A DNA stretch of 64,000 nt from a phage, in sequence record PZ386963.1; one strand, 5' to 3'. The notes beneath the pieces were generated by a model. That model saw only the letters and a list, made by a program, of their open reading frames with translations, was not told the origin of the DNA and ran no database searches. Below are positions 18,642 to 59,406 of the stretch, one piece after another. The translations under genes were made by a program, and so were the position numbers. Within the stretch, counting starts at the first letter, position 1; each line of letters begins with the position of its first letter.

Positions 18642-20876
18642 ATGATTAAGACAATTAAAAAATCAAACGGTACAGTAGTAAGCTTTGACCCAGAAAGACT
18701 GAACAAGTGGGCATCATGGGCAGATAAGCGTGGAATTATCTGGTCAGAAGTCACTATGGAAGCTATGAAACGTGTCTATGAAGGATGCACTACAAAAGAG
18801 ATGCACCAAGCCATGATTGATGTTTGTGTTGATAAACAAACTCAAGAGTACTCAGACATGGCTGGACGGCTACTTTTGGGTATTATCTACAAAGAAGCCT
18901 TTGGAGGCTTTACTAAGGTTCCTACACTGATTACCTTCGTTAAAAATATGGAGAGAGCAGGACTTTGGGAGAAGATGGACTATTCACAGGAAGAGCTTGA
19001 ATACCTGCAAGGTTACATCGTACACTCAAAAGATATCTCTTACGGTTATGCAGTCTTGAAACAGTTCAGAGACAAGTACGGTATCCGTGATATTAAAACT
19101 GGAAGACTTTTTGAGTCACCACAGTTTATGTTTATGGGTATGGCTATGAAAGCCTTTGAGAAGCAACCAAAGCACCGTAGACTGCAAGATGTTATCAAGC
19201 TGTACACTTACCTGTCTGACCTGAAGATTAATGCTCCTACACCTTATTTAAACGGTTTAAGAGCCACCAAGTCAGGCTATGCGTCATGCTGTTTGATTAA
19301 GGCAAATGATACTGCTGAGTCTCTCGGTATTGCTGCAAAGGTTGCTTATGATATGACCACAAAGCAAGCTGGTATTGGTATGCTGATGGAGACTCGCACT
19401 ATTGGTGATGGTATCCGTCAAAATACGATTGAGCACATGGGTAAACTACCTTATTACAAGCTTGTACGTTCATCTGTAGAGGCAAACAAACAGAAGAGCC
19501 GTGGTGGTTCAGCTAATAACTTTTACACTGCTCTAGACCCGCAGATTGAAGATTTACTGCGTTTGAAGCACCCTACAACGGTTCCTTCTAAACGTATTAA
19601 TGAGATGGACTACTCATTCGGCACAAACGATTATTTCTGGCAGTGTGTTCAGTATGACACAGATTGGTTGCTATTCTCTTACAAAGATGCACCAAAACTC
19701 TATGACATGTTCTACACAGCATCTGCTGATGAGTTTGCTATGGCAGTTGGTCACGCAGTACATTCAGGGGTTAAGCACAGACGAGTCAAGGCTCGTGAAA
19801 TTGCTAAGCTGTTTATTCAGCAGCGTTATGCTACAGGTCGTGTGTATCCATTCTTCACTAACAATGCAAACACACATACACCATTTAAAGAGCCTTTGAA
19901 GATGTCAAATCTTTGTATGGAAATTGTGTTGCCAGTGTATGGTTTTGAGAAAGAGACAGACCTTTACAGAGACGATGCTGTGAAAGAGGATGGTGAGGTG
20001 GCTCTTTGCTTCCTAGCTAGTTTGGTTGCAGGGAGAATTTCAGAAGATGAATACGCTGACGTTGCTTATTATGCTCTTGCAATGGTTGACTCCGTTATTG
20101 ACCTTATGGATTATCCGTATCCGTCGATGCGTAACCATGTTCAGAAGCGTCGTTCTGTTGGGATTGGCCTTACAAATGTGGCTCATTACCTTGCGAAGAA
20201 CTACGTGAACTACTCTTCACGAGCAGGTAAAACGAAACTTCATGAACTTGCAGAGATGCACTCTTACTATCTGCATGAAGCTTCTCTGAGACTTGCTAAA
20301 GAGCGTGGCGTTCCAGAGTACATGAAGTTCACTAAGTATCCTGAAGGCTGGGTTCCCCCAAAGACAGCTAACAAGAAGATTGATGAAAAGCATGATGCAA
20401 AACTACGGTATGATTGGGATGACTTAGCACAACGTATCAAAGAAAATGGTGGAATCCGAAACTCTGTATTAGAAGCTTACATGCCTAATGAGAGTTCCTC
20501 ACTAGCAACTAATACGACAAATGGCTTGTACCCAATTCGTGACTTTATTTTAACTAAAAAGTCTGCAACTGGTAACGTACTGTTTATTGTTCCAGATTAC
20601 GAAGAGTTGAAGTATGTCTATGAGATTGCTTGGGATATTGACACCTTTGATATGATTGATTGTTATGCAATTGTTCAAAAGTTCACTGGTCAAGCTATCT
20701 CTTCAGACTTCTATGTTGACTATGCAAAGTCTAAGAAGGTATCATTGGCTCAAGCTCTGAAGTACATGATTTATGCCAACTCGGTAGGTATGAAAACAAT
20801 GTACTACCTTAACAGTCGCATTGGTGTAGGTAAATCTGCACTGCAAGATGCTTATTGCGAGGGTTGTGGTGTTTAG
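18642..20876 (+). CDS. nrdA: Ribonucleotide reductase class I large subunit
   Basis: 744 aa, N-terminal ATP-cone, conserved catalytic-core motifs. Confidence 0.9.
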   Translation: MIKTIKKSNGTVVSFDPERLNKWASWADKRGIIWSEVTMEAMKRVYEGCTTKEMHQAMIDVCVDKQTQEYSDMAGRLLLGIIYKEAFGGFTKVPTLITFVKNMERAGLWEKMDYSQEELEYLQGYIVHSKDISYGYAVLKQFRDKYGIRDIKTGRLFESPQFMFMGMAMKAFEKQPKHRRLQDVIKLYTYLSDLKINAPTPYLNGLRATKSGYASCCLIKANDTAESLGIAAKVAYDMTTKQAGIGMLMETRTIGDGIRQNTIEHMGKLPYYKLVRSSVEANKQKSRGGSANNFYTALDPQIEDLLRLKHPTTVPSKRINEMDYSFGTNDYFWQCVQYDTDWLLFSYKDAPKLYDMFYTASADEFAMAVGHAVHSGVKHRRVKAREIAKLFIQQRYATGRVYPFFTNNANTHTPFKEPLKMSNLCMEIVLPVYGFEKETDLYRDDAVKEDGEVALCFLASLVAGRISEDEYADVAYYALAMVDSVIDLMDYPYPSMRNHVQKRRSVGIGLTNVAHYLAKNYVNYSSRAGKTKLHELAEMHSYYLHEASLRLAKERGVPEYMKFTKYPEGWVPPKTANKKIDEKHDAKLRYDWDDLAQRIKENGGIRNSVLEAYMPNESSSLATNTTNGLYPIRDFILTKKSATGNVLFIVPDYEELKYVYEIAWDIDTFDMIDCYAIVQKFTGQAISSDFYVDYAKSKKVSLAQALKYMIYANSVGMKTMYYLNSRIGVGKSALQDAYCEGCGV

Positions 20877-21189: not shown

Positions 21190-22259
21190 TTAACCAGCAC
21201 CCAATCTTTTTAGGTGGTGAGAGAAAAACTTTTGACTCACTTAACAAGCACTACCCAAAAATCTTTGAACTTTATAAACAACAAAAAGCACAAGACTGGT
21301 CAGAAGATGAGTTCCCTTTTGAACAATCACGTCTTGATTTTGAGAGTGTCCCAGCATCAATGTCAGGTGTAATGCTTGAGATTCTTAAGTGGCAATGGGA
21401 AGCAGACACTCAAGTTGCTAAGAGTTTGGCATTTGCCTTTGCACCCTTTATCTCTGACGACATCTATGCAACTGCAATTATGAAGCAGTCTGAGATTGAA
21501 AACCTACATGCTCTTACTTACTCAGAGATTGTAAGACAATGTATTAAAAACCCTGAAACAATCTTAGACGAGATTAACCAGAATGTTGCTGTGCAAGACC
21601 GATTAAAAACGGTGAATCGTGTTCTTGAAGAATTACTGGATGAAGGTATAAACTATCGACTGAGTTATGTGCGTGACTCACTTCTGGACAAAGACCCTTT
21701 ACACTTCCATAAAGTGATTCTGAAAGGTCTATTTGCAGTGACTGCACTGGAAGGTATATCTTTTATGGCATCCTTTGCATGTACTTTTGCACTTGATGCT
21801 CAAGATAAATTTCAGGGTATTGCTCAAGCTGTGCAGAAGATTATGCTTGATGAAATCCTTCACACTAAAATTGATATTGAAGTTTTAAAAGAAACTTTAA
21901 GGGATGATGAGTGGCAGAAAGCTTTTCAACAAATTCTTCCAGAGATTAAAGTAATCTTAGATGAAGTAGTTGAAAGTGAAGAGAAATGGTCGTATTATAT
22001 CTTCTCCGAAGGACGTGCTGTAGTTGGCTTAAATACAAAGCTTCTTCATGAGTGGGTTTATTATAATGCTGCCCCACTGTATGATATGTTTGGCATTCCC
22101 AGAGATTTTGTAGCTCCTAAAGAACCACCTTTGAAGTACATGATTAAGAAGATGGAAATTGATAAAGAGCAGAATGCTAATCAGGAGCAACAGAACGGTG
22201 CGTACCTATTGAATACTGTTGTAGACGATTTGAATAGTGGATTTTTAGAGGTTCCTTAA
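21186..22259 (+). CDS. nrdB: Ribonucleotide reductase class I small subunit
   Basis: Ferritin-like di-iron protein; start at MINQHP behind AGGAGA RBS. Confidence 0.85.
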   Translation: MINQHPIFLGGERKTFDSLNKHYPKIFELYKQQKAQDWSEDEFPFEQSRLDFESVPASMSGVMLEILKWQWEADTQVAKSLAFAFAPFISDDIYATAIMKQSEIENLHALTYSEIVRQCIKNPETILDEINQNVAVQDRLKTVNRVLEELLDEGINYRLSYVRDSLLDKDPLHFHKVILKGLFAVTALEGISFMASFACTFALDAQDKFQGIAQAVQKIMLDEILHTKIDIEVLKETLRDDEWQKAFQQILPEIKVILDEVVESEEKWSYYIFSEGRAVVGLNTKLLHEWVYYNAAPLYDMFGIPRDFVAPKEPPLKYMIKKMEIDKEQNANQEQQNGAYLLNTVVDDLNSGFLEVP

Positions 22260-38484: not shown

Positions 38485-38686
38485 AAAGACACGAAAACTT
38501 ATCAGGTCAGCAGTGTTCATTGGACGAAATGAGGTCATCCCATTTACAGCAAATGATGTGATAGCTTACAGGAAGAACTTAGTATTCACTGACTGCTTAC
38601 GTGGCTTCATCTCTGAACCATTGGAAGACTTTAAAAGTCGTTGTGGTAAAGGTATCATCATTCAAGAGGCAATTATTCATGGCTGA
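38459..38686 (+). CDS. Hypothetical protein
   Basis: 75-aa ORF. Confidence 0.3.
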   Translation: MKVILARDKKTRKLIRSAVFIGRNEVIPFTANDVIAYRKNLVFTDCLRGFISEPLEDFKSRCGKGIIIQEAIIHG

Positions 38687-38879
38687 CTTCTGTAAAGACT
38701 GTTCTATCGAAATGTTCGGACGTGATACAGGTGACTTAAAAGGTCTTATCACTGAAGATGACTTTAAAGCTGGTTATGCAATGCCAGTAATCTGTGAAGG
38801 TTGTGGGTGCATCTGGGTAGACCATGAGGGGCAACGTGTAAAACCTTCAGAAGATAAAGAATCTTGGGAGAGATGTTAA
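38679..38879 (+). CDS. Small Cys-rich protein
   Basis: CKDCS...CEGCGC; start at MADF. Confidence 0.3.
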   Translation: MADFCKDCSIEMFGRDTGDLKGLITEDDFKAGYAMPVICEGCGCIWVDHEGQRVKPSEDKESWERC

Positions 38880-39665
38880 ATGGGTATTGTAAAAATCATC
38901 AATGGTGATATCTTTGCTGCATTTGATAAAGGTAAGTTTGACATCATTGGTCATGGTTGTAACTGTATGAACCTAATGGGTGCAGGTATCGCTGATAAGA
39001 TTTCTAAACTTTACCCAAAAGCATATGAGACCGATACAGAAGTTTATCTATATGCAGGTGGTATAGGCCACAAACCCTGTGAAAATTTACTGGGTAATTT
39101 CTCCGTAGCACGTTTAAAACAAGGTCGTATAGCTAACCTTTACACTCAGCTTAAGACTGGTAAAGATGCACGATACAGTGCTTTAGAGTCATCTTTGAAA
39201 CAGCTTAACAGATACTGTGAAGTTAACCAGTTGAAGAAGGTTGGTCTACCTATGATTGGTGCAGGTATCGGTGGACTTGACCCTCAAGCTGTCACAGTTA
39301 TCATCAATCAGGTGATGAAGGGTGTAGATGTTTATCTGTATGTCTATGAAGGAGAGATGTACCACAAGTTACGCTCAGGTTGGAAGAACTACTGTGAACC
39401 AGAATACTTTGCAGGTGTAGCAGTGTTCACAGATAACGCAGTTACCCTCTTCAGACGAAGAAAAGGTAAGATACATCAAAGTAACCCTCCGGTTGAAAAG
39501 ATGTCTCTAAGTAATGCTCTAGTTACCCACCTGTCGAAGAGCAATCACAGAATTGCTGTAACATTTGGTAGTGATGCAGAAGCTTATATCTATGCAAGAA
39601 CTGATGAGGATATCGAGGCAATCTTCTCTTCACCAGAAGTTACCTTCTTAGACGCAAAGAACTAA
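38880..39665 (+). CDS. Macrodomain protein, TARG1/OARD1-like (ADP-ribose binding/hydrolase)
   Basis: INGDIF...IIGHGCNCMNLMGAGIA matches the glycine-rich MGAGIA loop of TARG1-type macrodomains. Confidence 0.55.
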   Translation: MGIVKIINGDIFAAFDKGKFDIIGHGCNCMNLMGAGIADKISKLYPKAYETDTEVYLYAGGIGHKPCENLLGNFSVARLKQGRIANLYTQLKTGKDARYSALESSLKQLNRYCEVNQLKKVGLPMIGAGIGGLDPQAVTVIINQVMKGVDVYLYVYEGEMYHKLRSGWKNYCEPEYFAGVAVFTDNAVTLFRRRKGKIHQSNPPVEKMSLSNALVTHLSKSNHRIAVTFGSDAEAYIYARTDEDIEAIFSSPEVTFLDAKN

Positions 39666-39716
39666 GAAACTTCGTAGTATATTCACAATAGACTAAGCCT
39701 TTCTTATCTGGTAAAT

Positions 39717-39925
39717 TTTTCAGGTAAGGAGGGCTTTTTCATTTCAGATTTGTGCAGGTAAAGTTCTGTAGAGAAATCTATAGAGAAAATTTTGAACTCC
39801 AAAGAGAAAATTCATTTTCAAACTGTGCAGGTAATCTCCAAAGAGCTTTTTCATTTTCAAAACGTGCAGACCCCGCTCAGGTCGGGCAAGAAAAATCATT
39901 TTAGAATTGTGCAGGTAGGTGGGTG
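39717..39925. repeat. Four to five degenerate direct repeats (~TTTTTCATTTTCARAnTGTGCAGGTA) in ORF-free spacer
   Basis: Copies near 39735, 39807, 39845, 39891. Confidence 0.55.
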
Positions 39926-40092
39926 TAGGTGGGGCTGTCGCCATTTCTCACAAGGCTACCACATCTGAAAATAAAAGTCAACAGAAAAATTTGTAGCGGA
40001 TTGAAAAATAATTCTTGATTGTAGTTCTGTTTTGTGTTAGTCGTGCGCGCCCGTTTCATTCCATTTTTGCAAAAATATTTTTAAAATTCCTA

Positions 40093-40121
40093 TTGACTCT
40101 TTGAGTATGGTTATCTAATAT
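40093..40121 (+). promoter_or_regulatory. Sigma70-like promoter heading the small-gene array
   Basis: TTGACT - 17 bp - TAATAT. Confidence 0.5.
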
Positions 40122-40171
40122 TTGCATCAGACGGGCAATCAAGCCCACTTCCTAAACTGGAGAATCTAAAA

Positions 40172-40378
40172 ATGCTTTACAGTCGTGAATTGATGGTTAC
40201 AACTAACGTTAACACAAAGGTAAAACGTTTTTACATGCAAATTTGTGGCGTATGGTCTAGAATATCAGAGGCTGACTATTGCAACTATGTAGAAACAGCT
40301 ATAAACTCTAATTGCTACCTTACAAGAAATACTAAGAATTTTACAAGGCAAACAGCGATTTGCTATTACGATAAATAA
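40172..40378 (+). CDS. Cassette gene 1, hypothetical
   Basis: 68 aa; leader CTAAACTGGAGAATCTAAAAATG. Confidence 0.4.
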   Translation: MLYSRELMVTTNVNTKVKRFYMQICGVWSRISEADYCNYVETAINSNCYLTRNTKNFTRQTAICYYDK

Positions 40379-40380
40379 AA

Positions 40381-40465
40381 GTACTTTACATGGGGCTTAA
40401 AAGTCTGTAAAGTAAGCCCCAGATAAAGAGCTTTACCAACAACCTTAAACTAGGAGAATCTGAAA
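40381..40465 (+). promoter_or_regulatory. Cassette head type A: promoter-like TTTACA/TAAAGT + GGGGCTTA/TAAGCCCC stem-loop + conserved leader/RBS
   Basis: Stem-loop and AGATAAAGAGCTTTACC...TAAACTAGGAGA leader conserved across copies. Confidence 0.55.
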
Positions 40466-40846
40466 ATGGCATATCGCGCACCTAAATTCATCAACAAAGA
40501 CAACTTTCGCAACGCACTGGAGAAGTCACTTGATGAGGATTTTAAAGGCAATGTTATTGTTGTCCACGCATTCAATTTTAAGTATGATATTAACGGGAAC
40601 AGAATCAACCATTACACGGCAACAATGTTAGATGGCACACTTTCAAGTGAAAAAGCCATTATCAATGCACTTGCAGGACGTGGGAAAAACCTGATAAGAT
40701 GCGATAAGAGACGTTATCAAGGTGGCGCATATGGTTACGATGATGCTATCTATCATCTTGAGAATATGGGCTATCTAGTAGAAAAAGCGGGAGCGCCCCA
40801 AATTATTGGTAGTGATGGCTATGTAACAATTTTCAAAATTAACTAA
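40466..40846 (+). CDS. Cassette gene 2, hypothetical
   Basis: 126 aa. Confidence 0.45.
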   Translation: MAYRAPKFINKDNFRNALEKSLDEDFKGNVIVVHAFNFKYDINGNRINHYTATMLDGTLSSEKAIINALAGRGKNLIRCDKRRYQGGAYGYDDAIYHLENMGYLVEKAGAPQIIGSDGYVTIFKIN

Positions 40847-40850
40847 TAAA

Positions 40851-40934
40851 GTACTTTACAAGGGGCTTAGTAGTTGATACCTTAAGCCCCAGATAAAGAG
40901 CTTTACCACTAAATCCTAAATTGGAGATTCTAAA
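40851..40934 (+). promoter_or_regulatory. Cassette head type A
   Basis: Same stem-loop/leader as 40381. Confidence 0.55.
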
Positions 40935-41225
40935 ATGGCTATTATCAAAAACGTTGTAATTACTGCAAAAACTCGCGATGACGCTCGTGTTATGGCTAAA
41001 AAGTTATGCGGAAAAGTAGTTGACAACGGAAAACAATCTGCTGTAAGATGGGGCGTAAAGGTTGATAAACATTTAACCTTGAAACGCAGTTCAAATAACC
41101 TTTTTAAAGGTGTGGAAACACTCGGTAAAACAAACGTATACACTAAAAAATCATATATCAAACGCGTAGCCTTAACCTCCCCCATTCGAACAATCAGAGG
41201 CTATGCAAAACTGAAAATTAACTGA
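40935..41225 (+). CDS. Cassette gene 3, hypothetical basic protein
   Basis: 96 aa. Confidence 0.45.
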   Translation: MAIIKNVVITAKTRDDARVMAKKLCGKVVDNGKQSAVRWGVKVDKHLTLKRSSNNLFKGVETLGKTNVYTKKSYIKRVALTSPIRTIRGYAKLKIN

Positions 41226-41229
41226 TAAA

Positions 41230-41314
41230 GTACTTTACAGGGGGCTTAAAAGTTGATATCTTAAGCCCCAGATAAAGAGCTTTACCACTAAATCCTTAAA
41301 CTAGGAGATTCAAA
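41230..41314 (+). promoter_or_regulatory. Cassette head type A
   Basis: Same stem-loop/leader. Confidence 0.55.
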
Positions 41315-41827
41315 ATGAAAACTGTAGACGCTACTTTTGAAGTTGTAAAAGAAAAATTCACTATTATTTATGAAGCGGTAAATTGCTACGAAGCAAGCCA
41401 TAATCTTGATAATTGGAAGTTTACAGATGACCATCAAGGCGGCGTGACTGTTAAAAACCCTAACTGTCAGCGTAACGATTTTAAATATGCAATCCCTTTA
41501 AATTATAGCCTTAAACAGCTTTCTAGTGACTATGCAAAACAAGGCCGGGAAAATCCATCAAAAGAGGCTTACATCAGCTTACAGGAAGAACTAGAAAGAG
41601 ATTTAGAGGCTTCAGAATACAACCTTGCCGCGAAAGTTGTCGATGCAAATGGTCAAACAATTTTAGACAGTTTTTATATTGGTTACGCTTTCGATTGGTG
41701 CTATAGTGACGGTGATGATTTAGAGGATAGACTAAAAGAAGAGGTGAGCAATTCAGACGCAGAGACTGAAGTATTAGAACGTTTGGAATCATTAAAAGAT
41801 GCAGTGATGAATATCTTTAAAAACTAA
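41315..41827 (+). CDS. Cassette gene 4, hypothetical acidic protein
   Basis: 170 aa. Confidence 0.45.
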   Translation: MKTVDATFEVVKEKFTIIYEAVNCYEASHNLDNWKFTDDHQGGVTVKNPNCQRNDFKYAIPLNYSLKQLSSDYAKQGRENPSKEAYISLQEELERDLEASEYNLAAKVVDANGQTILDSFYIGYAFDWCYSDGDDLEDRLKEEVSNSDAETEVLERLESLKDAVMNIFKN

Positions 41828-41834
41828 ATAGATT

Positions 41835-41916
41835 TCTTTACACGGGGTTATCAAGCTGATAAGATAGCCCCAGATAAAGAGATTTACCACTAAATCCTTA
41901 AACTAGGAGATTCAAA
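41835..41916 (+). promoter_or_regulatory. Cassette head type A (variant stem)
   Basis: GGGGTTATC...GATAGCCCC stem-loop plus conserved leader. Confidence 0.5.
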
Positions 41917-42213
41917 ATGAAATTATCAAATAAAGTTAGGGAAAACCTTAGCAAATTACTCAATAAAATTGATTTTATCGAGACATCAAGAAATAGTCAT
42001 GATGTTATGGAATGGTTACACGGCAAAATAAAAGGCCGTCGTGTGGTGATTTGCTTATGGAATAGTTGCAGGGAGTATAAAAAACCTGTATTACAAGTTA
42101 ATATATACGATAATACTTTTAAAAGCCCTGTAAAGTCTAAAAGCGATTTATTAGAAGCCTATGAGATAACTGTAAGTGGCAAAGTATCACGTAAAGAGGA
42201 ATCACCATGCTAA
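41917..42213 (+). CDS. Cassette gene 5, hypothetical
   Basis: 98 aa. Confidence 0.45.
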   Translation: MKLSNKVRENLSKLLNKIDFIETSRNSHDVMEWLHGKIKGRRVVICLWNSCREYKKPVLQVNIYDNTFKSPVKSKSDLLEAYEITVSGKVSRKEESPC

Positions 42214-42539
42214 TGACTGGCATCACTGCAATTATAGCCATTTTCGCGCTCTATAAGGCATATAAAGCCTATAATTTAGCAGATAAGGCAATCACACAGC
42301 AGGTTAGCAATAACCTCGTAATGAGCTTTCTAGAGCGTTTAAGTGATGAGCAAATAAAGCGGCTAGAGATGAGCTTCAGATATAAAGCGAAAACCTATCA
42401 GATAAGTGACATCTTCAAAGATGATTTTCAGTTAGTTGATGATTATAATTCTCTGATAAATGCTTTAAATATCAGTGACTTAAAAGACTACTACGCTGTA
42501 ATTGTTCAAGAATTGAGCAAACGAAAACAAAGTGTTTGA
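42207..42539 (+). CDS. Cassette gene 6, membrane-anchored hypothetical (no own cassette head; overlaps gene 5)
   Basis: 110 aa, hydrophobic N-terminus. Confidence 0.4.
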   Translation: MLMTGITAIIAIFALYKAYKAYNLADKAITQQVSNNLVMSFLERLSDEQIKRLEMSFRYKAKTYQISDIFKDDFQLVDDYNSLINALNISDLKDYYAVIVQELSKRKQSV

Positions 42540-42629
42540 CACTGATTTTTAGATAGATTAAATTACACATCAACGGGGAGGGAATGACCTTCCCCACTAA
42601 ATAAAGTCCTTAAACTAGGAGATTCTAAA
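42536..42629 (+). promoter_or_regulatory. Cassette head type B: TTGACA-17-TAAATT promoter + GGGGAGGGAATGACCTTCCCC stem-loop + conserved leader
   Basis: Canonical -35/-10 spacing; stem-loop at transcript 5' end. Confidence 0.6.
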
Positions 42630-42902
42630 ATGTATACTACTAACAACGGTCGTACTTTAAATGTCACTCTACGTCACTATGTAGATGGTGTAATGTGCTT
42701 TGAGGATTTACGGGCTGAACAACACATCTTAGATTGGCAAGTAGCAGGACTCCAAAAAACTGCTACCGGATACGGTAAAAAGATTCCAACCAGTTGGAAA
42801 GTACACTACGAAGGGCGTTTGCGTAGAATTTATCAAGATGTTTGTAGCAATAGCGCATCGAGTTACATCATGGTAAAAGGTAAAAAGCTGCATTTAGTGT
42901 AA
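42630..42902 (+). CDS. Cassette gene 7, hypothetical
   Basis: 90 aa. Confidence 0.45.
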   Translation: MYTTNNGRTLNVTLRHYVDGVMCFEDLRAEQHILDWQVAGLQKTATGYGKKIPTSWKVHYEGRLRRIYQDVCSNSASSYIMVKGKKLHLV

Positions 42903-42988
42903 AGTACTTTACAAGGGGCTTATAGTTCGATAAAGTAAGCCCCAGATAAAGAGCTTTACCCCTAAATCCTAAATTGGAGAACTTAAAA
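42903..42988 (+). promoter_or_regulatory. Cassette head type A
   Basis: Same stem-loop/leader. Confidence 0.55.
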
Positions 42989-43393
42989 ATGGCTATTAAT
43001 AACCGTGAGTTATCAATCTTAAAAGCACGTTTGACCGTTAACCGGATTAATGTTATCACGTCATCAGCGCCTGATGAGACATTGCACAACATTATCGGGA
43101 AGATTCAAAGCGTTATCTTAGACGTTGAAAACGTAAAAAAATCATTGGCTGACGTTGCAGCAGGTATCACGCTAGACGGCGCACAATATGAAATGTCCGA
43201 CATGTTAGGCAAATCAAAGGTAATGAATAAAGAATTAGACTTGAAAATGTTTCGATTTGCTGTCAAAGTGTGGCTATCTGTCGAGTATGACGCTAATTTT
43301 GCAATCGCTGATTTCTTTGCCACTTGGTTACAACGTAATTTGACAAATCACGATTTTCGTGATGTCTGTGATGCAATTTATGCAGAACTCTAA
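42989..43393 (+). CDS. Cassette gene 8, hypothetical
   Basis: Start at MAINN behind GGAGA RBS. Confidence 0.45.
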   Translation: MAINNRELSILKARLTVNRINVITSSAPDETLHNIIGKIQSVILDVENVKKSLADVAAGITLDGAQYEMSDMLGKSKVMNKELDLKMFRFAVKVWLSVEYDANFAIADFFATWLQRNLTNHDFRDVCDAIYAEL

Positions 43394-43402
43394 AAAATTT
43401 TG

Positions 43403-43497
43403 TTGACACTGGTTTTTAGATAGATTAAATTACACATCAACGGGGAGGGAATGACCTTCCCCACTAAATAAAGTCCTTAAACTAGGAGATTCTAAAA
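43403..43497 (+). promoter_or_regulatory. Cassette head type B
   Basis: Near-identical to 42536-42629. Confidence 0.6.
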
Positions 43498-43701
43498 ATG
43501 GCTATTATCAACGGCTTACACATTGAAACAACTCACATCAAAGATATTAAAGTTGGTGATGTAGTCCTTTCCCACGGCGTAGAGAAAACTGTCACTGCAA
43601 AGGATATCAAAGAGGATTCTTTCATGGGTAGGACTCTCTTCGGTGATTCTTATTGCTTAGGGTATCTTGCAGTTTTAAAAGTTGTCAAAAATAACAAATA
43701 A
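43498..43701 (+). CDS. Cassette gene 9, hypothetical
   Basis: 67 aa. Confidence 0.4.
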   Translation: MAIINGLHIETTHIKDIKVGDVVLSHGVEKTVTAKDIKEDSFMGRTLFGDSYCLGYLAVLKVVKNNK

Positions 43702-43787
43702 AGTACTTTACAAGGGGCTTAAAAGTTGTTACCTTAAGCCCCAGATAAAGAGCTTTACCACTAAATCCTAAACTGGAGATTCAAAAA
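43702..43787 (+). promoter_or_regulatory. Cassette head type A
   Basis: Same stem-loop/leader. Confidence 0.55.
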
Positions 43788-44333
43788 ATGAAATGCTTTC
43801 ACGGTACTACTCAAGAAAACTTTATCAACCTGATTAATAATGGTGATAAGCCATCAGGTGCATGGAATTGTTCGGATATGGATGGCAATTTTTACGTATA
43901 CCCAGAAAATAAAATCTATGGTGACGATGAGGAAGAGATAGTATCCGAAGGTATTCAACAGGCGTTAGGAAATGCCACTATCACGGCAGCTTTCCAGATG
44001 AAAACCCAAAACATTGTTATCTTGGAACTTGATATTCCAGAGGATGAATTAAATGATGATTATTCTTGTGATAATATGTCTGGCGTAGCAAGTTTTACAG
44101 AATACTTCGATTTAAATTGGATTAAAAAGGTTTACGTAACCGAGTTTAATGCGATGTTTTCGCCTTTTTGTCTTCCTTCATTGGATAACCCAAATTTAAA
44201 CTATCTTGATGAGTCTCTGGAGCTTCTTGCTAAAAGCGTTCAACAGTCGGACAGTATTCAGGTTTTTTGTGACATCATGGATACACTGGCAGGAAACATC
44301 GCAGAAGAGGATTTAAAGAGCTTTTTTTTTTAA
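43788..44333 (+). CDS. Cassette gene 10, hypothetical acidic protein
   Basis: 181 aa. Confidence 0.45.
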   Translation: MKCFHGTTQENFINLINNGDKPSGAWNCSDMDGNFYVYPENKIYGDDEEEIVSEGIQQALGNATITAAFQMKTQNIVILELDIPEDELNDDYSCDNMSGVASFTEYFDLNWIKKVYVTEFNAMFSPFCLPSLDNPNLNYLDESLELLAKSVQQSDSIQVFCDIMDTLAGNIAEEDLKSFFF

Positions 44334-44399
44334 AAACCTATGCAATCACCTTATAAACACTAATCAGCCCCTTGTAGGGGCTTTTAGAGGGCTTAAATC

Positions 44400-44633
44400 A
44401 TGCTAACAACCGTTTATCTCATCCTCTCAATTTGTAATGGCCATTCATGTGACTTTAAAGGGCTTGAAGAGTTTACAGGAAGTAAAGAAAATGCCATTCA
44501 GGTGTGCCAGATAGCAAGGCAAGACTATCCCGCCAGTGATGACATTCAATGTTACTTTAAGACAGAAGATAACGACGGAATCTACTTCGATAGTGTTGAT
44601 GGTCAATATGAAATTATCATTGAAAAAGACTAG
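44400..44633 (+). CDS. Cassette gene 11, small hypothetical protein
   Basis: 77 aa; preceded by a different hairpin CCCCTTGTAGGGGC. Confidence 0.4.
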   Translation: MLTTVYLILSICNGHSCDFKGLEEFTGSKENAIQVCQIARQDYPASDDIQCYFKTEDNDGIYFDSVDGQYEIIIEKD

Positions 44634-44724
44634 ACAAGCCTGATAAAAGTCTGTAAATTGTCAATCAACGGGGAGGGAATGACCTTCCCCACTGAATAAA
44701 GTCCTTAAACTAGGAGATTCTAAA
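44631..44724 (+). promoter_or_regulatory. Cassette head type B
   Basis: TAGACA-17-TAAATT, GGGGAGGGAATGACCTTCCCC stem-loop, conserved leader. Confidence 0.55.
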
Positions 44725-45066
44725 ATGGCTTATGTAACCGTAATTACCGATAAAGCTGGCGCATCTTGGTCAACTCAGGTTAGTGATAAGATGACACCTA
44801 TGCAGTGCCTAAAATACTTTGAACAGTGGAACAAAGGTGAGGATACAAGCCCCTTTCAAGTGATGCAAATTATCCATATAGACAATGAAGGGAAGAAAAC
44901 AACTCTGAATAGTGAGTACTACGCAAGCCGTTTTGAAACGAGAAGTAAAGCAATGAAGCTCTTACGTGAGGCCGGATATGGTCACATTGCCGCGATAATC
45001 TGGGATGACCTTCTAAAAAGTCAGCGTATCAGCTATGTAAAACCTGAAAAAATATTCATCAGTTAA
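44725..45066 (+). CDS. Cassette gene 12, hypothetical
   Basis: 113 aa. Confidence 0.45.
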   Translation: MAYVTVITDKAGASWSTQVSDKMTPMQCLKYFEQWNKGEDTSPFQVMQIIHIDNEGKKTTLNSEYYASRFETRSKAMKLLREAGYGHIAAIIWDDLLKSQRISYVKPEKIFIS

Positions 45067-45196
45067 TCAATAACTTACAAAAAACTTTTAAAAAAGTGTT
45101 GACAATACCCCTTGACATTGGTAACTTTGTTCGAGGGGGTTTATCTAAAAGGGATTCACTTAAAAGATTCTTTATAGATAAGCTTAAAAAATTGCT

Positions 45197-45285
45197 TGCA
45201 ATCAGCTATCAAAACAAGTAAATTAATAATCAACGGGAGGGATGACCTCCCCACTAAATAAAATCCTTAAACTAGGAGAGTCAAA
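45197..45285 (+). promoter_or_regulatory. Cassette head type B (variant)
   Basis: TTGCAA-17-TAAATT, GGGAGGGATGACCTCCCC stem-loop, conserved leader. Confidence 0.5.
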
Positions 45286-45816
45286 ATGAACAAGTTTAAA
45301 GCTATCAACTACATTCGTTCAAATGCTGTAATGTCTAAGCCTGTTAAAGACACATATGAGTTCCGTTGTAATGGGGTACACTTTGCAACCATCACCAAAT
45401 CAGAAAACGGGGCTTATTATATCCATCGTCGTAATGTTGCAACCGTTGCAGTCTCTCACTTTATGCAAGCTGTAGCGGAATTATTACCGTTATTCTTAGA
45501 GATTTACTTAGATGAGTGTAAAAACGTTCGTAACCACGTTAAAAACCTTTTAAACGGTTATAAAATGGCTTATGAACGTTCTATCAAGTCCTTAAACAAG
45601 TTTTATAAAGCCCCTGTAAATACTGTTTCAATGGCTTACAGTGTAAGCGGTGAGTTGGTTAGCCTCTTCGAAGTGGAAGAAATCGAACTCTATGACTCAC
45701 GTCCTAGCGGTTACTCTAAGACACTGGGAGAAGGCTTAACGTTCAATATCAAGAACTTAGAAAAAACTTTAAAAGATATTGAAAAAGATATTGACGAAAC
45801 AATCAAAAGTCTGTAA
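45286..45816 (+). CDS. Cassette gene 13, hypothetical
   Basis: 176 aa. Confidence 0.45.
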   Translation: MNKFKAINYIRSNAVMSKPVKDTYEFRCNGVHFATITKSENGAYYIHRRNVATVAVSHFMQAVAELLPLFLEIYLDECKNVRNHVKNLLNGYKMAYERSIKSLNKFYKAPVNTVSMAYSVSGELVSLFEVEEIELYDSRPSGYSKTLGEGLTFNIKNLEKTLKDIEKDIDETIKSL

Positions 45817-45895
45817 ATTGTCAATCAACGGGGAGGGAATGACCTTCCCCACTAAATAAAACCCTTAATCAACTTCCTAAACTGGAGATTCTAAA
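45791..45895 (+). promoter_or_regulatory. Cassette head type B
   Basis: TTGACG-17-TAAATT inside 3' end of upstream gene; stem-loop plus leader. Confidence 0.55.
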
Positions 45896-46229: not shown

Positions 46230-47800
46230 CCCTTTCCTTCTCCTTTCTAGAATCTTATCAGACCTTAAAAGCAATAACTCTATAGTCTACTCTATAGCCT
46301 TTTATCAAATCAGTTTAAATATAAGCCCATAACCCGAAAGGGAAGGGCAACCACTAAAACGCTCTATAACGCCCTATAACAGCCTTATCAACCTAACTTA
46401 AGGTATTGCATTACCTCACCCTTAAAAGCCCTTTATAGAGCTTCTTAGAGCCTTAAAAGAATCTTATAAGTGTGTAAGCTTTATCATCTCGTTAGTATTC
46501 TTGTGAACTACTATAAAGGACTTGTTAGTGTCTTAAAAGTATGTTATAGGGGCTGTTAAGTTACTTTGAAGTAGCTTAAAAGTTACGTAAAAGAGGCTAT
46601 GAAGTTACGTAAATGCTAGCCCCCTTAACATTTTCTTAACAATTTCTTAACAAACCCTACATAGTTATGCTTGTTAGCCCCTTGTTAAATCTCTGTTAAG
46701 ACCACGTAAAAGCTTTGTAAGAGTCTTTGGCATAGCCTTAAAAGCTCCTGTAAAGCCATATAAAGAGCTATCTGTACAGTTGGGGTGTAACTACTAGGAA
46801 GAGACTTAAAAGAGCCTATACAGAGCTATAGAGAGCTTTTAAAAGGTATGTTTAAGGAATCACTAAGAAAGGAAAGGGAACGATAAGAAAGAAGAGTTGT
46901 GTTTGTAAACAACCACTGTGACCATGTTAATAGCTTGTTAAAAAGATTAAACACTTGTTAGGAACTTGTTAATTATCTTAACAAAATAACTCTTAAAAAT
47001 TAACTTGTTAGCTCTTGTTAGTCATCTGTTAAGCCTCTGTAAAGACTATTCAGCACTTGTTAGGAAACTGTTACACCCTTGTTAGTTCTGTTAAGAAACT
47101 GTTAAGACCTTTGAAGAGTTGTTAATAAGATGTGAGAACTGTTAAGAGATTGTTAAGGATATTTTAAAATTTTGCAAAGTACTTGTAAGGGAGCTGTTAA
47201 GGGCTACCAAGCAGATATACATCCTAGACAGATATTTTTCAGTTCCTTCAAAGACCCTAAAAAATGACTTGACAGTCCTATTTTATAAAAATTTTAAAAT
47301 TCTGAATAATTACCTATACAGTCTTTTAAAAATACAGGTAGAAACAGGCTTATAAGATACCTTGTTAGTACCGTGTTAGACCTTGTGAGATAAGGTCTGT
47401 AAAGATATTCCTGTTAAGTTTGTTAAAACAGTCTATATAGAGGCTTAGTAATACCTAGTGAACACCTATAGAGGTGTATCATAGCTGACATAGAGATTAA
47501 GAGGTGTATAGGAGCTTCTAAGAGGGTGTAGAGGGATGGTTAAGGTAATTGTATAGGTTGTTAAGAAGGCTTGTTAGAAGAGTGTTTAGAAGGCTTGTTA
47601 GAGGGCTAGTTAGAAGGGTTATACAGAGGGGCTATTAAGACCACTAGATAGATACTAAGATACTATATAGTACTATATAACTATATAGAGAGTAAGATTA
47701 AGAAGATTGTTAAGAAGGATAGATATTTTGTTCACATATGATGGTGACCCAGAGGTTGGGACAACCGATAAAATTTTATAAAAATTAAAAAGCCCCCAAT
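46230..47800. repeat. About 1.6 kb ORF-free region saturated with short degenerate repeats (CTTGTTAG / CTGTTAAG / CTTAAAAG / CTGTAAAG families, both orientations)
   Basis: Dozens of 7-9-mer copies; no ORF of 60 aa or more on either strand; sits between convergent gene blocks. Confidence 0.7.
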
Positions 47801-58248: not shown

Positions 58249-58325
58249 CTCTGTTTAGCTCAGCTTGGTAGAGCGTTCCGTTTGGGGCGGTAAGGCCGGA
58301 GGTTCAAGTCCTCCAACAGAGACCA
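58249..58325 (+). tRNA. tRNA-Pro (anticodon TGG), CCA encoded
   Basis: Cloverleaf by eye: acceptor CTCTGTT/AACAGAG, D-arm GCTC/GAGC, loop TTTGGGG, T-loop TTCAAGT. Confidence 0.7.
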
Positions 58326-58332
58326 AATTAAT

Positions 58333-58410
58333 GTTCCAGTAGACAAAATGGTAAAGTCACCACTCTTTCAAAGTGGATATCTGAGGGTTCAAATCCCTTC
58401 TGGAACGCCA
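58333..58410 (+). tRNA. tRNA-Glu (anticodon TTC), CCA encoded
   Basis: Acceptor GTTCCAG/CTGGAAC, anticodon stem CCACT/AGTGG, loop CTTTCAA. Confidence 0.65.
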
Positions 58411-58416
58411 GTTTTG

Positions 58417-58492
58417 ACAGAAGACCAATTACAGCAAACTTAATCTTATTCATCTGAAGGTAAATCGGACAAAGAAGAGATTTGGTCTGGTC
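58417..58492 (+). ncRNA. Conserved inter-tRNA hairpin element, copy 1 (candidate small RNA or processing signal)
   Basis: ACAGAAGACCAATTACAGCAA at 5' end pairs with TTGGTCTGG at 3' end. Confidence 0.35.
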
Positions 58493-58502
58493 ATTAAGAA
58501 TT

Positions 58503-58578
58503 GCGGGTATAGAGAAAGGGCGTCTCACATGTCTCATTAGCATGGTATCGGCAGGTTCGACTCCTGCACCCGCCTCCA
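58503..58578 (+). tRNA. tRNA-Met/Ile2 (anticodon CAT) with unpaired position 1-72
   Basis: D-stem GAGA/TCTC, anticodon stem CATGT/GCATG, loop CTCATTA, T-arm GCAGG/CCTGC. Confidence 0.55.
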
Positions 58579-58583
58579 AATTT

Positions 58584-58650
58584 ACAGAAGACCGTTTACA
58601 GCAATATTTATTAAATTTTTAGCGGAAAAATTGAAAGATACGGTCTGGTA
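58584..58650 (+). ncRNA. Conserved inter-tRNA hairpin element, copy 2
   Basis: ACAGAAGACCGTTTACAGCAA ... ACGGTCTGG. Confidence 0.35.
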
Positions 58651-58661
58651 ATACTAAACAT

Positions 58662-58738
58662 GGTTAGGAAGCACATAAGGTATGTGCGGTCGCCTGTTAA
58701 GCGAATGGCACAGGGTTCGAATCCCTGACTAACCGCCA
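58662..58738 (+). tRNA. tRNA-Asn (anticodon GTT)
   Basis: D-stem GCAC/GTGC, loop CTGTTAA, T-arm CAGGG/CCCTG, 3' end ACTAACC-G-CCA. Confidence 0.65.
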
Positions 58739-58807
58739 AATTTAGGAGAGAAGCGATTGCTCACCGATTTGTAAGGTGCAAGTCCTTAGCCTGAATAGAA
58801 ATTAAAT

Positions 58808-58895
58808 GTGTCGTTATCCCGTAGATGGTAGCGGTGGGGACTGTAAATCCCTTGTCATTGAGACTCGGTAGGTTCGACTCCTACACGGCACACCA
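58808..58895 (+). tRNA. tRNA-Tyr (anticodon GTA), long variable arm
   Basis: Acceptor GTGTCGT/ACGGCAC, loop CTGTAAA, 15-nt variable arm, T-loop TTCGACT. Confidence 0.65.
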
Positions 58896-58900
58896 ATAAA

Positions 58901-58978: not shown

Positions 58979-59038
58979 ATTTTGAGAGGGCTATTTAGCC
59001 CCTCCCTTAAAGAGTTCTTACGAGTATTCTTTAAAGGA

Positions 59039-59113: not shown

Positions 59114-59125
59114 CTCAACAAATTT

Positions 59126-59402: not shown

Positions 59403-59406
59403 TAAT

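What the first reader, a model, noticed from the sequence alone, without database searches (positions are those of the whole stretch)
39717..39925. Direct-repeat array in the spacer between the macrodomain gene and the cassette array
Four to five copies of a ~25-bp unit (consensus about TTTTTCATTTTCARAnTGTGCAGGTA) spaced 40-55 bp apart lie in a 450-bp ORF-free region (39.67-40.17 kb) that ends in the first cassette promoter. Regularly spaced direct repeats next to a strong early promoter suggest iterated protein-binding sites, for example a transcription factor, H-NS-like silencing or an origin-like iteron set.
Basis: seen in the sequence. Interest (0 to 1): 0.5.

Follow-up and report, generated by a model that had tools for sequence, protein, structure and literature searches.

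The report
Conserved four-site DNA repeat array
Four same-direction copies of an 18-bp two-part motif sit in a gene-free gap of a Felix O1-like phage; they occur nowhere else in the genome and are conserved across at least three phage genera, so they are very probably docking sites for a DNA-binding protein (my best guess is the replication origin), though no study I could find describes or tests them.

Summary
The window is a Felixounavirus (Felix O1-like) genome. Four co-oriented copies of TCATTT-N7-GTGCA lie at 39739-39913, between the macrodomain gene terminator and the first early promoter.

- **Uniqueness:** a weight matrix trained only on relatives scores the four sites 36-39 bits. The next best site in 64 kb scores 11 bits, which is chance level. 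A complete relative genome has exactly four exact core matches, all in this array.
- **Conservation:** the array is present in Felixounavirus, Mooglevirus, Kolesnikvirus and a further metagenomic lineage. The two half-sites evolve about as slowly as non-synonymous codon positions, while the N7 and the linkers drift.
- **Spacing:** the spacer to the next conserved block is 59 bp in two unrelated sequence alleles.
- **Excluded:** sigma-70-like promoters, structured RNA, a conserved ORF, the genome terminus (about 6.7 kb away), and any copy in host genomes or plasmids.

Best reading: iteron-like sites for a probably phage-encoded protein, most likely a replication origin (about 0.3). A polar transcription boundary or regulator of the early promoter is nearly as likely.

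No specific role is shown. I found no description of the array in the searchable literature.

The parts
38880..39665 (+). Macrodomain ('phosphatase') gene, last gene of the long + strand operon; upstream neighbour of the array in every lineage examined
   Evidence: ORF list; Pfam Macro PF01661, E 1e-7; annotated phosphatase/macro domain/O-acetyl-ADP-ribose deacetylase in relatives
39695..39739 (+). Intrinsic terminator of the macrodomain gene: 17-pair hairpin 39695-39736, then a T-run (39735-39739) that is also the T-tract of repeat copy 1. The 3' arm holds the half-unit TTTTTCAGGTAAGG (39716-39729).
   Evidence: Terminator scan; the 3' arm CAGGTAAGGAGGGCTTTTT is nearly invariant while the 5' arm changes with compensation (finno/EcoM2 allele)
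39734..39760 (+). Repeat copy 1: CTTTT-TCATTT-CAGATTT-GTGCA-GGTA (core 39739-39756)
   Evidence: 38.9 bits
39765..39788 (+). Small tandem TCTGTAGAGAAA / TCTATAGAGAAA inside the long first spacer
   Evidence: family D13; conserved in the Felixounavirus alignment
39797..39833 (+). Repeat copy 2: linker CTCCAAAGAG, A-tract, core TCATTTTCAAACTGTGCA (39812-39829), GGTA
   Evidence: 37.7 bits
39836..39869 (+). Repeat copy 3: linker CTCCAAAGAG, T-tract, core TCATTTTCAAAACGTGCA (39851-39868)
   Evidence: 35.8 bits
39881..39917 (+). Repeat copy 4: GTCGGGCAAG, A-tract, core TCATTTTAGAATTGTGCA (39896-39913), GGTA
   Evidence: 36.3 bits
39914..39972 (.). Length-conserved, sequence-variable spacer (59 bp from the last core to the next conserved block). 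The window carries the G-rich allele. Other Felixounaviruses and Mooglevirus carry an unrelated C-rich polypyrimidine allele that is a canonical G-quadruplex motif on the minus strand.
39973..40030 (.). Conserved A+T-rich block AAAAGTCAACAGAAAAATTTGTAGCGGATTGAAAAATAATTCTTGA..., shared with Mooglevirus. It contains a degenerate fifth unit (about 40003-40030). Candidate unwinding or architectural element.
   Evidence: (D3); AT fraction 0.73
40093..40121 (+). First early promoter of the cassette region (TTGACT-17-TAATAT), preceded by an A/T-rich UP-like stretch; 179 bp downstream of the last core
40172..40378 (+). First small early cassette gene (68 aa, phrog_5293, unknown function)

Best explanation
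The array is a genome-unique cluster of four co-oriented, bipartite recognition sites (W5-TCATTT-N7-GTGCA-G/T) for a sequence-specific DNA-binding protein. The binder is most likely encoded by the phage and common to the Ounavirinae lineages examined.

Each site offers two different half-sites about 12.5 bp apart centre to centre. That fits one asymmetric protein, or a two-domain monomer, per site, as with iteron-binding initiators.

Four bound sites would form a nucleoprotein complex at a fixed distance: 59 bp from a conserved A+T-rich block and about 180 bp from a strong rightward early promoter. My committed reading is that this complex marks the replication origin. Under that reading, iteron binding plus transcription from the adjacent promoter would open the neighbouring A+T-rich block so that the phage's T7-like primase-helicase and PolA-type polymerase can load.

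**Shown:** the repeats, their uniqueness, their selective constraint and their fixed geometry.
**Inferred:** protein binding, the identity of the binder, and the origin function.
For: 1. **Real and non-random.**
2. **Unique.** A PWM trained on relatives gives 35.8-38.9 bits for the four sites. The next best site in the window scores 11.4 bits, within the range of shuffles. The complete UAB_Phi87 genome has exactly four exact cores, all here.
3. **Selection.** Across Felixounavirus plus Mooglevirus, pairwise diversity is 0.016 in the half-sites, 0.22 in N7 and 0.17 in the linkers. Within Felixounavirus it is 0.0225 (cores) and 0.005 (W-tract), against 0.133 at macro-gene third codon positions and 0.017-0.028 at positions 1-2.
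4. **Deep conservation.** Four copies are found in 27 of 29 IMG/VR loci recovered with the macrodomain protein, in Mordin (Mooglevirus) and in Erwinia phage M7 (Kolesnikvirus). All Erwinia phage rows listed match the 601-bp query only over the array, at 39811-39913 or 39847-39913. A more distant 88-kb lineage has about 5 copies. Copies keep position-specific N7 and W-tract signatures, so each is maintained individually.
5. **Survives flank replacement.** Where the macro gene 3' end and terminator are replaced by a different allele, copy 1 is retained in place (finno, EcoM2).
6. **Fixed geometry.** The distance from the last core to the AAAAGTCAA block is 59 bp in both unrelated spacer alleles. 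The distance from the last core to the -35 is 176-181 bp.
7. **Origin-like composition.** Direct repeats, then a GC-rich/G4-prone tract, then an A+T-rich conserved block, then a strong promoter.
8. **Replisome type.** Annotated as T7-like: primase/helicase, DNA polymerase and a helicase loader.
9. **Phage-specific.** Absent from bacterial genomes of the hosts, from plasmids and from E. coli, so it does not copy a host locus.
Against: - **No initiator nearby.** No initiator-like or DNA-binding gene was recognised among the eight upstream ORFs, the macro gene or the first downstream cassette genes by Pfam/PHROGs. Replication genes lie 20-30 kb away.
- **HTH protein is a poor candidate.** The one recognisable HTH protein in the window (2852-3148, minus strand) is of the XRE type, which as far as I know usually binds palindromes. 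It was not detected in the Erwinia phages that carry the array.
- **Atypical spacing.** Site spacing is 37-77 bp, and differs between genera. From my own knowledge, classical iterons have a period of about 22 bp.
- **Weak DUE evidence.** The flanking DNA is not among the least stable in the window. The least stable stretches are at about 9.7 kb (the divergent replication-gene promoters) and 47.3-47.7 kb (the terminal repeat cluster). Both are rival origin candidates.
- **GC skew unhelpful.** It falls rather than rises across the array on the + strand and is dominated by transcription.
- **No experimental data** on replication, binding or essentiality of this region were found.
Confidence: 0.3

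Rival explanations
1. Polar transcription boundary or regulator of the first early promoter. A protein bound to the four co-oriented sites just downstream of the macrodomain terminator acts as a roadblock. It reinforces termination of the roughly 30-kb upstream operon and insulates the terminal early-cassette region. Alternatively it acts at a distance on the promoter 180 bp downstream, for example in temporal shut-off or activation.
For: - Copy 1 is fused to the terminator T-tract in Felixounavirus, Mooglevirus and the finno-type allele.
- All sites have the same polarity as transcription.
- The array lies exactly at the inner border of the region holding the promoter-hairpin modules found by BLAST (eleven at 40.38-45.87 kb; none seen outside that span).
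- The distance from the last core to the -35 is conserved at 176-181 bp, and about 200-220 bp in M7 and L061.
- The Felix O1 paper notes that temporal control of transcription in this phage is unexplained.
Against: - Other terminator/promoter junctions in the genome carry no such sites. Why only this one would need them is unclear.
- In M7 and L061 copy 1 is not fused to a terminator.
- 180-380 bp upstream is far for a sigma-70 promoter regulator.
- Conservation as strong as at non-synonymous sites across genera suggests something less dispensable than an insulator.
Confidence: 0.25
2. Binding sites for a conserved host protein of Enterobacterales, such as DnaA at non-consensus boxes, an AraC/MarA-type two-HTH protein, or the RNA polymerase alpha-CTD at UP-like A/T tracts. 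The phage would recruit this host protein.
For: - In Kolesnikvirus M7 the reverse complement of the 3' half-site reads CTATGCACA or TTATGCACG, one mismatch from the DnaA box TTWTNCACA in all four copies (sequence; consensus as quoted).
- L061 has CTATGCACA and CTATCCACG.
- The A-tract versions of the unit (AAAATTCATTTTCAAAA) resemble the UP-element consensus as I recall it.
- The motif is conserved in phages of four host genera, which a conserved host factor would explain.
Against: - In Felixounavirus and Mooglevirus the same positions read ACCTGCACA or GTCTGCACG, which is 3 mismatches. These positions are strictly conserved in that form, so DnaA-box quality is not what selection keeps.
- The part common to all lineages (TCATTT-N7-GTGCA) matches no host consensus I tried by eye (IHF, CRP, PhoB, MarA box, sigma-54).
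- No array of this motif exists in any Enterobacterales genome among 185,579 species representatives or in E. coli genomes.
Confidence: 0.1
3. DNA-entry pause site, analogous to the phage T5 injection stop signal. The genome end next to the early cassettes enters first. Entry stalls at the array, about 7-8% of the genome inside. The cassette genes are expressed, and then transfer resumes.
For: - The physical ends map to window about 46.5-47.2 kb. The array therefore lies about 6.7-7.2 kb, roughly 8% of an 87-88-kb genome, from that end.
- In M7 the array lies about 6.7-7.7 kb upstream of the same type of terminal TGTTAAG cluster. In L046 and a Moogle-like contig the distance is about 5-6 kb.
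- The strong-promoter cassettes found lie between the array and that end.
- The T5 first-step transfer is 7.9% of the genome and stops in a conserved non-coding repeat region.
- The sites are polar.
Against: - I know of no evidence that Felix O1-like phages inject in two steps, nor of which end enters first.
- The T5 region is built of inverted repeats, palindromes and paired DnaA boxes. This array has none of these.
- The roughly 8% figure may be coincidence.
Confidence: 0.06
4. Functionless relic. Tandem duplications of the terminator tail (…GCTTTTTCATTT…) persist by descent and hitch-hiking in a recombination-prone intergenic region.
For: - Units resemble the terminator 3' tail.
- Linkers share AAAGAGCTTT with cassette spacer modules.
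- The region borders a mosaic, hyperplastic zone.
Against: - Diversity in the half-sites is about 10-14 times lower than in the 7-bp gap or the linkers of the same units. It is also about 6 times lower than at third codon positions of the adjacent gene.
- The array survives replacement of both flanks.
- It is retained across genera whose macro proteins are only 64-70% identical.
Confidence: 0.04
5. Packaging or terminus element (pac site or terminal-repeat boundary), or an RNA-level or coding element (sRNA, protein sponge, small ORF).
For: - Five assemblies end 50-110 bp after copy 4: IMG/VR contigs L008, L009, L014 and L029, and the TH10 record.
- Some annotators call small ORFs here.
Against: - The assembly breaks coincide with the C-rich G-quadruplex-prone tract. 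One contig ends in a Nextera adapter, which points to an assembly or sequencing artefact.
- The Bal31-sensitive SpeI fragments of UAB_Phi87 (4322 + 2819 bp; PMC4837284) fit only the 6568-bp fragment at record 13014-19582, not the 40-kb fragment holding the array.
- The H12 and BPS15Q2 records start at window 46605-46619.
- RNA folding z-scores are +0.61 and -0.66, and there is no Rfam hit.
- No open frame is conserved across lineages, and unit spacing of 37 bp in M7 breaks any frame.
Confidence: 0.03

Closest known systems
Iteron-type replication origins (phage lambda ori with four O-protein iterons; P1 oriR, RK2 oriV, pPS10/R6K plasmid origins). Comparison from my own knowledge of these systems.
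   Same: Several direct, co-oriented repeats of about 18-22 bp in one unique locus. Asymmetric sites suited to monomer binding. Neighbouring GC-rich and A+T-rich segments, and a nearby promoter.
   Different: - Spacing is 37-77 bp rather than about 22 bp, and is not helically phased.
- No initiator gene was recognised overlapping or next to the repeats.
- The flanking A+T-rich block is not an outstanding stability minimum.
- No replication data exist.
Phage T5 injection stop signal / Repeat Region 3 of the left terminal repeat (Davison, bioRxiv 10.1101/866236)
   Same: A conserved non-coding repeat region at about 8% of the genome from a physical end. It lies at the inner border of a block of strongly transcribed immediate-early genes. 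It is better conserved than the neighbouring ORFs.
   Different: - The T5 region is 1.2 kb of nested inverted repeats, palindromes and paired DnaA boxes, and lies inside a 10-kb terminal repeat.
- Here there are four simple direct repeats outside a terminal repeat of about 0.6 kb.
- Two-step transfer is not known for Felix O1-like phages.
Polar protein-DNA barriers placed after transcription units (Tus-Ter sites; TTF-I 'Sal box' repeats downstream of rRNA genes; repressor or DnaA roadblocks). Comparison from my own knowledge.
   Same: Several asymmetric sites in one orientation, directly downstream of the end of a long transcription unit. Copy 1 overlaps the terminator T-tract.
   Different: No barrier protein is known. 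There is no sequence similarity to Ter or to other known barrier sites. The function is untested.
Repeated promoter modules of early regions in related phages (41-nt sigma-70 promoter repeats of PAK_P1-like phages, PMC4309531; 57-bp promoter-hairpin repeats of Felix O1, PMC3185647)
   Same: Short conserved intergenic repeats associated with the early, variable region of Felix O1-related myoviruses.
   Different: - Those repeats contain clear -35/-10 hexamers and are dispersed, one in front of each cassette.
- The array units have no -10 or -35 match on either strand.
- The array units are clustered at one place, with no gene behind each copy.

Membership tests
Iteron-type replication origin | Three or more direct, co-oriented repeats of about 17-22 bp at a single locus | tested here: met
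   Four co-oriented 18-bp cores (27-37 bp with flanks), unique in the window and in a complete relative genome
Iteron-type replication origin | Adjacent, easily melted A+T-rich unwinding element | tested here: inconclusive
   A conserved 73% A+T block lies 59 bp downstream. The 60-bp stability minimum in the gap (40063) is in the top 0.3%, but it is the promoter UP region. At 100-150 bp scale the gap ranks only at the 96-98th percentile. The least stable DNA is at 9.7 kb and 47.3-47.7 kb.
Iteron-type replication origin | Cognate initiator protein, usually encoded next to or across the iterons | tested here: not met
   The eight upstream ORFs, the macro gene and the first downstream genes have no DNA-binding or initiator domain in Pfam or PHROGs. 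The only HTH protein found in the window is about 37 kb away and was not detected in Erwinia phages that carry the array.
Iteron-type replication origin | Regular spacing of about two helical turns between repeats | tested here: not met
   Spacing is 73/39/45 bp here, 75/41/45 bp in Mooglevirus and 37/37/39 bp in Kolesnikvirus
Iteron-type replication origin | Replication initiates there | not testable with these tools
   Needs marker-frequency sequencing, 2D gels or origin-cloning assays
Sigma-70 promoter cluster | -35 and -10 hexamers with 16-18 bp spacing | tested here: not met
   No promoter-like site on either strand within 39700-39930 at 9 of 12 matches
DnaA-box cluster | Matches to TTWTNCACA with at most 1 mismatch | tested here: not met
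   In the window the best registers are ACCTGCACA and GTCTGCACG, with 3 mismatches. M7 copies have 1 mismatch, so the resemblance is lineage-specific.
Genome terminus / terminal repeat / pac site | Coincides with the physical DNA ends | tested here: not met
   The ends map to window about 46.5-47.2 kb. This rests on an in-silico SpeI digest compared with published Bal31 fragments and on the start of the H12 and BPS15Q2 records at 46605-46619.
T5-type injection stop signal | Non-coding repeat region at about 8% from the first-entering end, inside which the immediate-early genes lie | tested here: inconclusive
   The geometry fits: 6.7-7.2 kb of about 87-88 kb, with the promoter cassettes between the array and the end. 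Which end enters first is unknown.
T5-type injection stop signal | Inverted repeats, palindromes and paired DnaA boxes | tested here: not met
   The array contains only direct repeats. The inverted-repeat pairs reported in the array region are imperfect, 70-86% complementary. T5 features are as described.
T5-type injection stop signal | Two-step DNA transfer | not testable with these tools
   Needs infection experiments
Structured non-coding RNA | Stable or conserved secondary structure, or a known family match | tested here: not met
   Folding z-scores are +0.61 (+ strand) and -0.66 (- strand). There is no Rfam hit better than E 0.1.

The most novel reading that the evidence does not exclude
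Felix O1-like myoviruses deliver their DNA in two steps, like the siphovirus T5. The four-site array, about 8% in from the physical end that carries the strong-promoter early cassettes, would be the cis-acting stop signal. A host or virion protein would grip the incoming DNA there until the early proteins release it.
Probability: 0.06. Interest if true: 0.75.

Novelty: new member of a known kind. Interest (0 to 1): 0.42.

Why it matters
Felix O1 and its relatives are classical diagnostic phages and common components of therapeutic and biocontrol cocktails. Yet their replication origin, the control of their early transcription and their DNA-entry mode are unknown. The Felix O1 genome paper says so explicitly for transcription.

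A genome-unique, deeply conserved four-site array gives a concrete handle on these questions.
- It is a defined bait for finding the binding protein.
- It is a defined target for scrambling by phage engineering.
- It is a marker for locating the origin or boundary in every lineage that carries it.

For genome engineering it also flags a short non-coding stretch that should not be treated as a neutral insertion site.

Tried and rejected
- **Terminus or pac site.** Suggested by five assemblies ending just after copy 4. Rejected for three reasons: the breaks fall in a G-quadruplex-prone C-tract, one with adapter sequence; the published Bal31/SpeI data fit a different fragment; and two records start at window about 46.6 kb.
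- **UAB_Phi87 record ends.** I first read the 542-bp identical ends of this record (which map to window 61864-62405 in the tRNA region) as the terminal repeat. The in-silico SpeI digest contradicts this.
- **Promoters.** None on either strand.
- **Dispersed regulatory motif (middle or late promoter).** Rejected because there are no further sites anywhere in 87 kb.
- **Structured RNA or Rfam family.** Negative.
- **Coding repeat.** No conserved frame.
- **Host-derived sequence, or a copy in plasmids or E. coli.** None. The 18 bacterial hits are unrelated satellite or coding repeats in non-enterobacterial genomes, mostly MAGs. About ten of the 40 IMG/VR pattern hits are likewise coding repeats.
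- **Host-factor consensus sequences.** DnaA, IHF, CRP, PhoB, MarA box and sigma-54, compared by eye from memory. Only the lineage-restricted DnaA resemblance was noteworthy.
- **Inversion of the post-array segment between alleles.** Only a 10-nt shared word (GGTGGGGCTG) was found, so this is not an inversion.
- **Neighbouring genes as binder.** No DNA-binding domains. The 66-aa Cys-rich neighbour has no M7 counterpart. The XRE-type HTH protein is absent from Erwinia phages at E 1e-5.
- **GC skew as an origin indicator.** Uninformative because it is dominated by transcription.
- **PhageMaP (Bas63) paper.** No data for this intergenic region in the text, and no supplements held.
- **Literature searches.** No description of the array.

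Full report
**Identity of the window.** Megablast of 38800-41300 finds 257 phage records, nearly all Felixounavirus (Felix O1-like myoviruses of Escherichia, Salmonella, Shigella and Citrobacter). Of these, 152 cover at least 80% of the query, mostly at 90-95% identity. In the Felix O1 gene order the finding lies about 7.7-8.2 kb downstream of rIIA. It sits between the macrodomain 'phosphatase' gene and the first of many small early genes. Pfam confirms the Macro domain.

**The observation.** The repeat finder returns a four-copy direct family.
- The exact bipartite core TCATTT-N7-GTGCA occurs at 39739, 39812, 39851 and 39896, always on the + strand, and nowhere else in 64 kb. One-mismatch hits elsewhere are at the chance rate.
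- The 22-nt consensus has 2 hits at up to 3 mismatches against 0.01 expected.
- Spacing is 73, 39 and 45 bp.
The terminator's T-run doubles as the T-tract of copy 1.
- The full unit is about 37-40 bp: a linker (CTCCAAAGAG), a 5-nt T- or A-tract, TCATTT, seven loosely constrained bases (YMRAWNY), GTGCA, and then GGTA in three of the four copies.

**Uniqueness.**
- A weight matrix built only from relatives scores the four sites 35.8-38.9 bits. The next best site in the window scores 11.4 bits, and ten shuffles reach up to 12.5 bits.
- The complete genome of UAB_Phi87 (87.6 kb) has exactly four exact cores on either strand, all in the homologous array.
- The motif is therefore not a dispersed promoter or operator. 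It marks one locus.

**Conservation.**
- The macrodomain protein retrieved 29 IMG/VR loci. Of these, 27 carry the array. Most have four exact cores, and a few have a single-base change in one core.
- Mooglevirus (Mordin) has four copies spaced 75/41/45 bp. Kolesnikvirus (Erwinia phage M7) has four copies spaced 37/37/39 bp with the variant TTTTTCATTTTCAATTTGTGCATAG.
- In the 601-bp blastn, all Erwinia phage rows listed match only over the array, at window 39811-39913 or 39847-39913.
- A pattern scan of IMG/VR found the array only in 84-94-kb Ounavirinae-like contigs. The other hits were coding repeats.
- One more distant lineage (L061) has about five copies of AAAATTCATTTTAAAAACGTGCATAG, again just downstream of a macrodomain gene.
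- Three-copy variants exist: finno, EcoM2, L046 and L077. There the macro 3' end and the terminator are a different allele, yet copy 1 is still in place.

**Selection.** I defined the cores from within-genome repetition and tested them on between-genome alignments.
- Across Felixounavirus plus Mooglevirus, pairwise diversity is 0.016 in the half-sites, 0.22 in N7 and 0.17 in the linkers.
- Within Felixounavirus, diversity is 0.0225 (cores) and 0.005 (W-tracts). At macro-gene codon positions it is 0.133 (third) and 0.028/0.017 (first/second).
- Each copy keeps its own N7 and tract signature within a genus and partly across genera. The copies are therefore old and individually maintained, not homogenised.

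**What it is not.**
- *Promoters:* none on either strand.
- *Structured RNA:* folding z-scores are +0.61 and -0.66, and there is no Rfam match.
- *Coding:* no frame is conserved, and the 37-bp spacing in M7 breaks any frame.
- *Host-derived:* no array in 185,579 bacterial species genomes, and no similarity in plasmids or in E. coli genomes.
- *The genome terminus:* see the next section.

**Where the physical ends are.**
- The UAB_Phi87 paper reports 608-bp direct terminal repeats and Bal31-sensitive SpeI fragments of 4322 and 2819 bp.
- My in-silico digest shows that these sizes fit only the 6568-bp fragment at record 13014-19582. This places the repeat in a non-coding stretch that corresponds to window about 46.5-47.1 kb. 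The array lies in the 40-kb fragment.
- The record of phage H12, from a genome announcement that ran PhageTerm and reported direct terminal repeats, begins and ends at window 46619/46618. BPS15Q2 begins at 46605.
- The array is therefore about 6.7 kb upstream of the terminal repeat, roughly 7.2 kb or 8% from the right physical end.
- Five assemblies that stop 50-110 bp after copy 4 do so in a C-rich tract, one of them with Nextera adapter sequence. I read these as assembly artefacts.

**Architecture of the gap.**
1. After copy 4 comes a spacer that exists in two unrelated alleles. The window has the G-rich one. Other Felixounaviruses and Mooglevirus have a polypyrimidine tract whose complement, GGGGAGAGGGGGAGTAAGAGGGGGAGAGGGG, is one of only two G3+ quadruplex motifs in the whole UAB_Phi87 genome.
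2. Despite this, the distance from the last core to the next conserved block (AAAAGTCAA...) is exactly 59 bp in both Felixounavirus alleles and 55 bp in Mooglevirus.
3. The distance from the last core to the -35 of the first early promoter is 176-181 bp.
4. The conserved block is 73% A+T and contains a degenerate fifth unit.
5. It is followed by TTGACT-17-TAATAT with an A/T-rich upstream stretch.
6. The fixed spacing across unrelated sequence argues that the array works together with what lies downstream.

**Mechanism.**
- Two different half-sites about 12.5 bp apart, repeated four times in one orientation, are what one expects for monomers of an asymmetric or two-domain DNA-binding protein. 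Iteron-binding initiators are the textbook case (my own knowledge).
- The composite of repeats, a GC-rich/G4-prone tract, an A+T-rich block and a strong promoter resembles an origin. The phage has a T7-like replisome: primase-helicase, PolA-type polymerase and a helicase loader.
- I therefore commit to a replication origin as the single most likely role, at about 0.3.
- Against it: no initiator gene is recognisable nearby. The spacing is wide and variable. The flanks are not the least stable DNA, and two other non-coding regions (9.7 kb and 47.3-47.7 kb) are better unwinding candidates.
- A polar transcription boundary or promoter regulator is almost as likely (0.25). Copy 1 is fused to the terminator in three lineages, and the array lies exactly at the inner edge of the region holding the promoter-hairpin cassettes.
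- A host factor is possible (0.1). The M7 and L061 variants are one mismatch from DnaA boxes, but the Felixounavirus and Mooglevirus variants are three mismatches away and conserved as such.
- The most novel surviving reading is a T5-like DNA-entry stop at about 8% of the genome, which I put at about 0.06.

**Novelty.**
- Searches of the paper library for Felix O1/Ounavirinae origins, iterons or early-gene transcriptomes found nothing.
- The Felix O1 genome paper lists direct repeats of 24 bp or more but not this array. It states that temporal control of transcription is unknown.
- The element is thus, as far as I could search, an undescribed member of a familiar kind: clustered iterated binding sites in a phage intergenic region. 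It would not astonish a specialist, but it is a clean, testable handle on open questions in a widely used phage group.

Noticed in passing
window 46300-47800: A roughly 1.5-kb ORF-poor region packed with 11-bp-period YTGTTAR repeats (CTTGTTAG/CTGTTAAG; about 30-40 matches). They are inverted (TTAACA) at 46622-46661 and direct from 46670 onward. The region holds two of the least stable 60-bp duplex stretches in the window (47274, 47645). The physical genome ends and the roughly 0.6-kb terminal repeat map here. The same repeat type ends the Erwinia phage M7 record and follows the array directly in lineage L061. It is a candidate terminase-recognition or origin region.
   Followed up: partly
window 40378-45868 (e.g. 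40378-40434): About eleven repeated 70-110-bp spacer modules between the small early genes. Each is a 22-nt inverted repeat enclosing a promoter-like TTTACA-17-TAAAGT that reads the same on both strands. This matches the 57-bp repeat noted in the Felix O1 paper and resembles, from my memory, the promoter-early stem-loops of T4-type phages. All lie between the array and the terminal repeat.
   Followed up: partly
window 39914-39972; UAB_Phi87 record 22097-22127: The spacer after the array has two unrelated alleles of identical length. The C-rich allele is a textbook G-quadruplex motif on the minus strand and one of only two such motifs in an 87-kb genome. Four IMG/VR contigs and the TH10 record break at or just beyond this segment, and one contig ends in Nextera adapter sequence.
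   Followed up: partly
GenBank JN225449 (L036/L037); maps to window 61864-62405: The UAB_Phi87 record has 542 identical bases at both ends, in the tRNA region. The published Bal31/SpeI fragment sizes place the real terminal repeat about 15 kb away in that record. The record ends therefore look like an assembly overlap, not the physical termini.
   Followed up: yes
window 9600-9800: The least stable 100-150-bp DNA in the window. It has a 27-nt near-palindrome (9708-9762) and a 23-nt direct repeat, and lies in the divergent region between the DNA polymerase block and the primase-helicase block. It is an alternative candidate for an origin or for the main early promoters.
   Followed up: no
window 2852-3148 (- strand): A 99-aa XRE/Cro-type helix-turn-helix protein (HTH_3, phrog_1373 'transcriptional regulator') in the DNA polymerase operon. 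It is present in 259 Felixounavirus/Mooglevirus-type records but was not detected in the Erwinia Kolesnikviruses.
   Followed up: partly
window 38679-38879 (+): A 66-aa Cys-rich protein (CxxC...CxxCxC, phrog_2210) immediately upstream of the macrodomain gene. It is possibly zinc-binding. No counterpart was found at the same position in Erwinia phage M7.
   Followed up: partly
window 58249-63556: A cluster of 25 tRNA genes on the + strand (ARAGORN), 24 of which are also found by Rfam. This is typical of Felix O1-like phages.
   Followed up: no
GenBank GU169904.1 (Staphylococcus phage SA1) and MG065664.1 (Campylobacter phage A132): Records labelled as Staphylococcus and Campylobacter phages contain Felixounavirus sequence at 91-93% identity. 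SA1 contains this intergenic region itself. The records are probably contaminated or chimeric.
   Followed up: no
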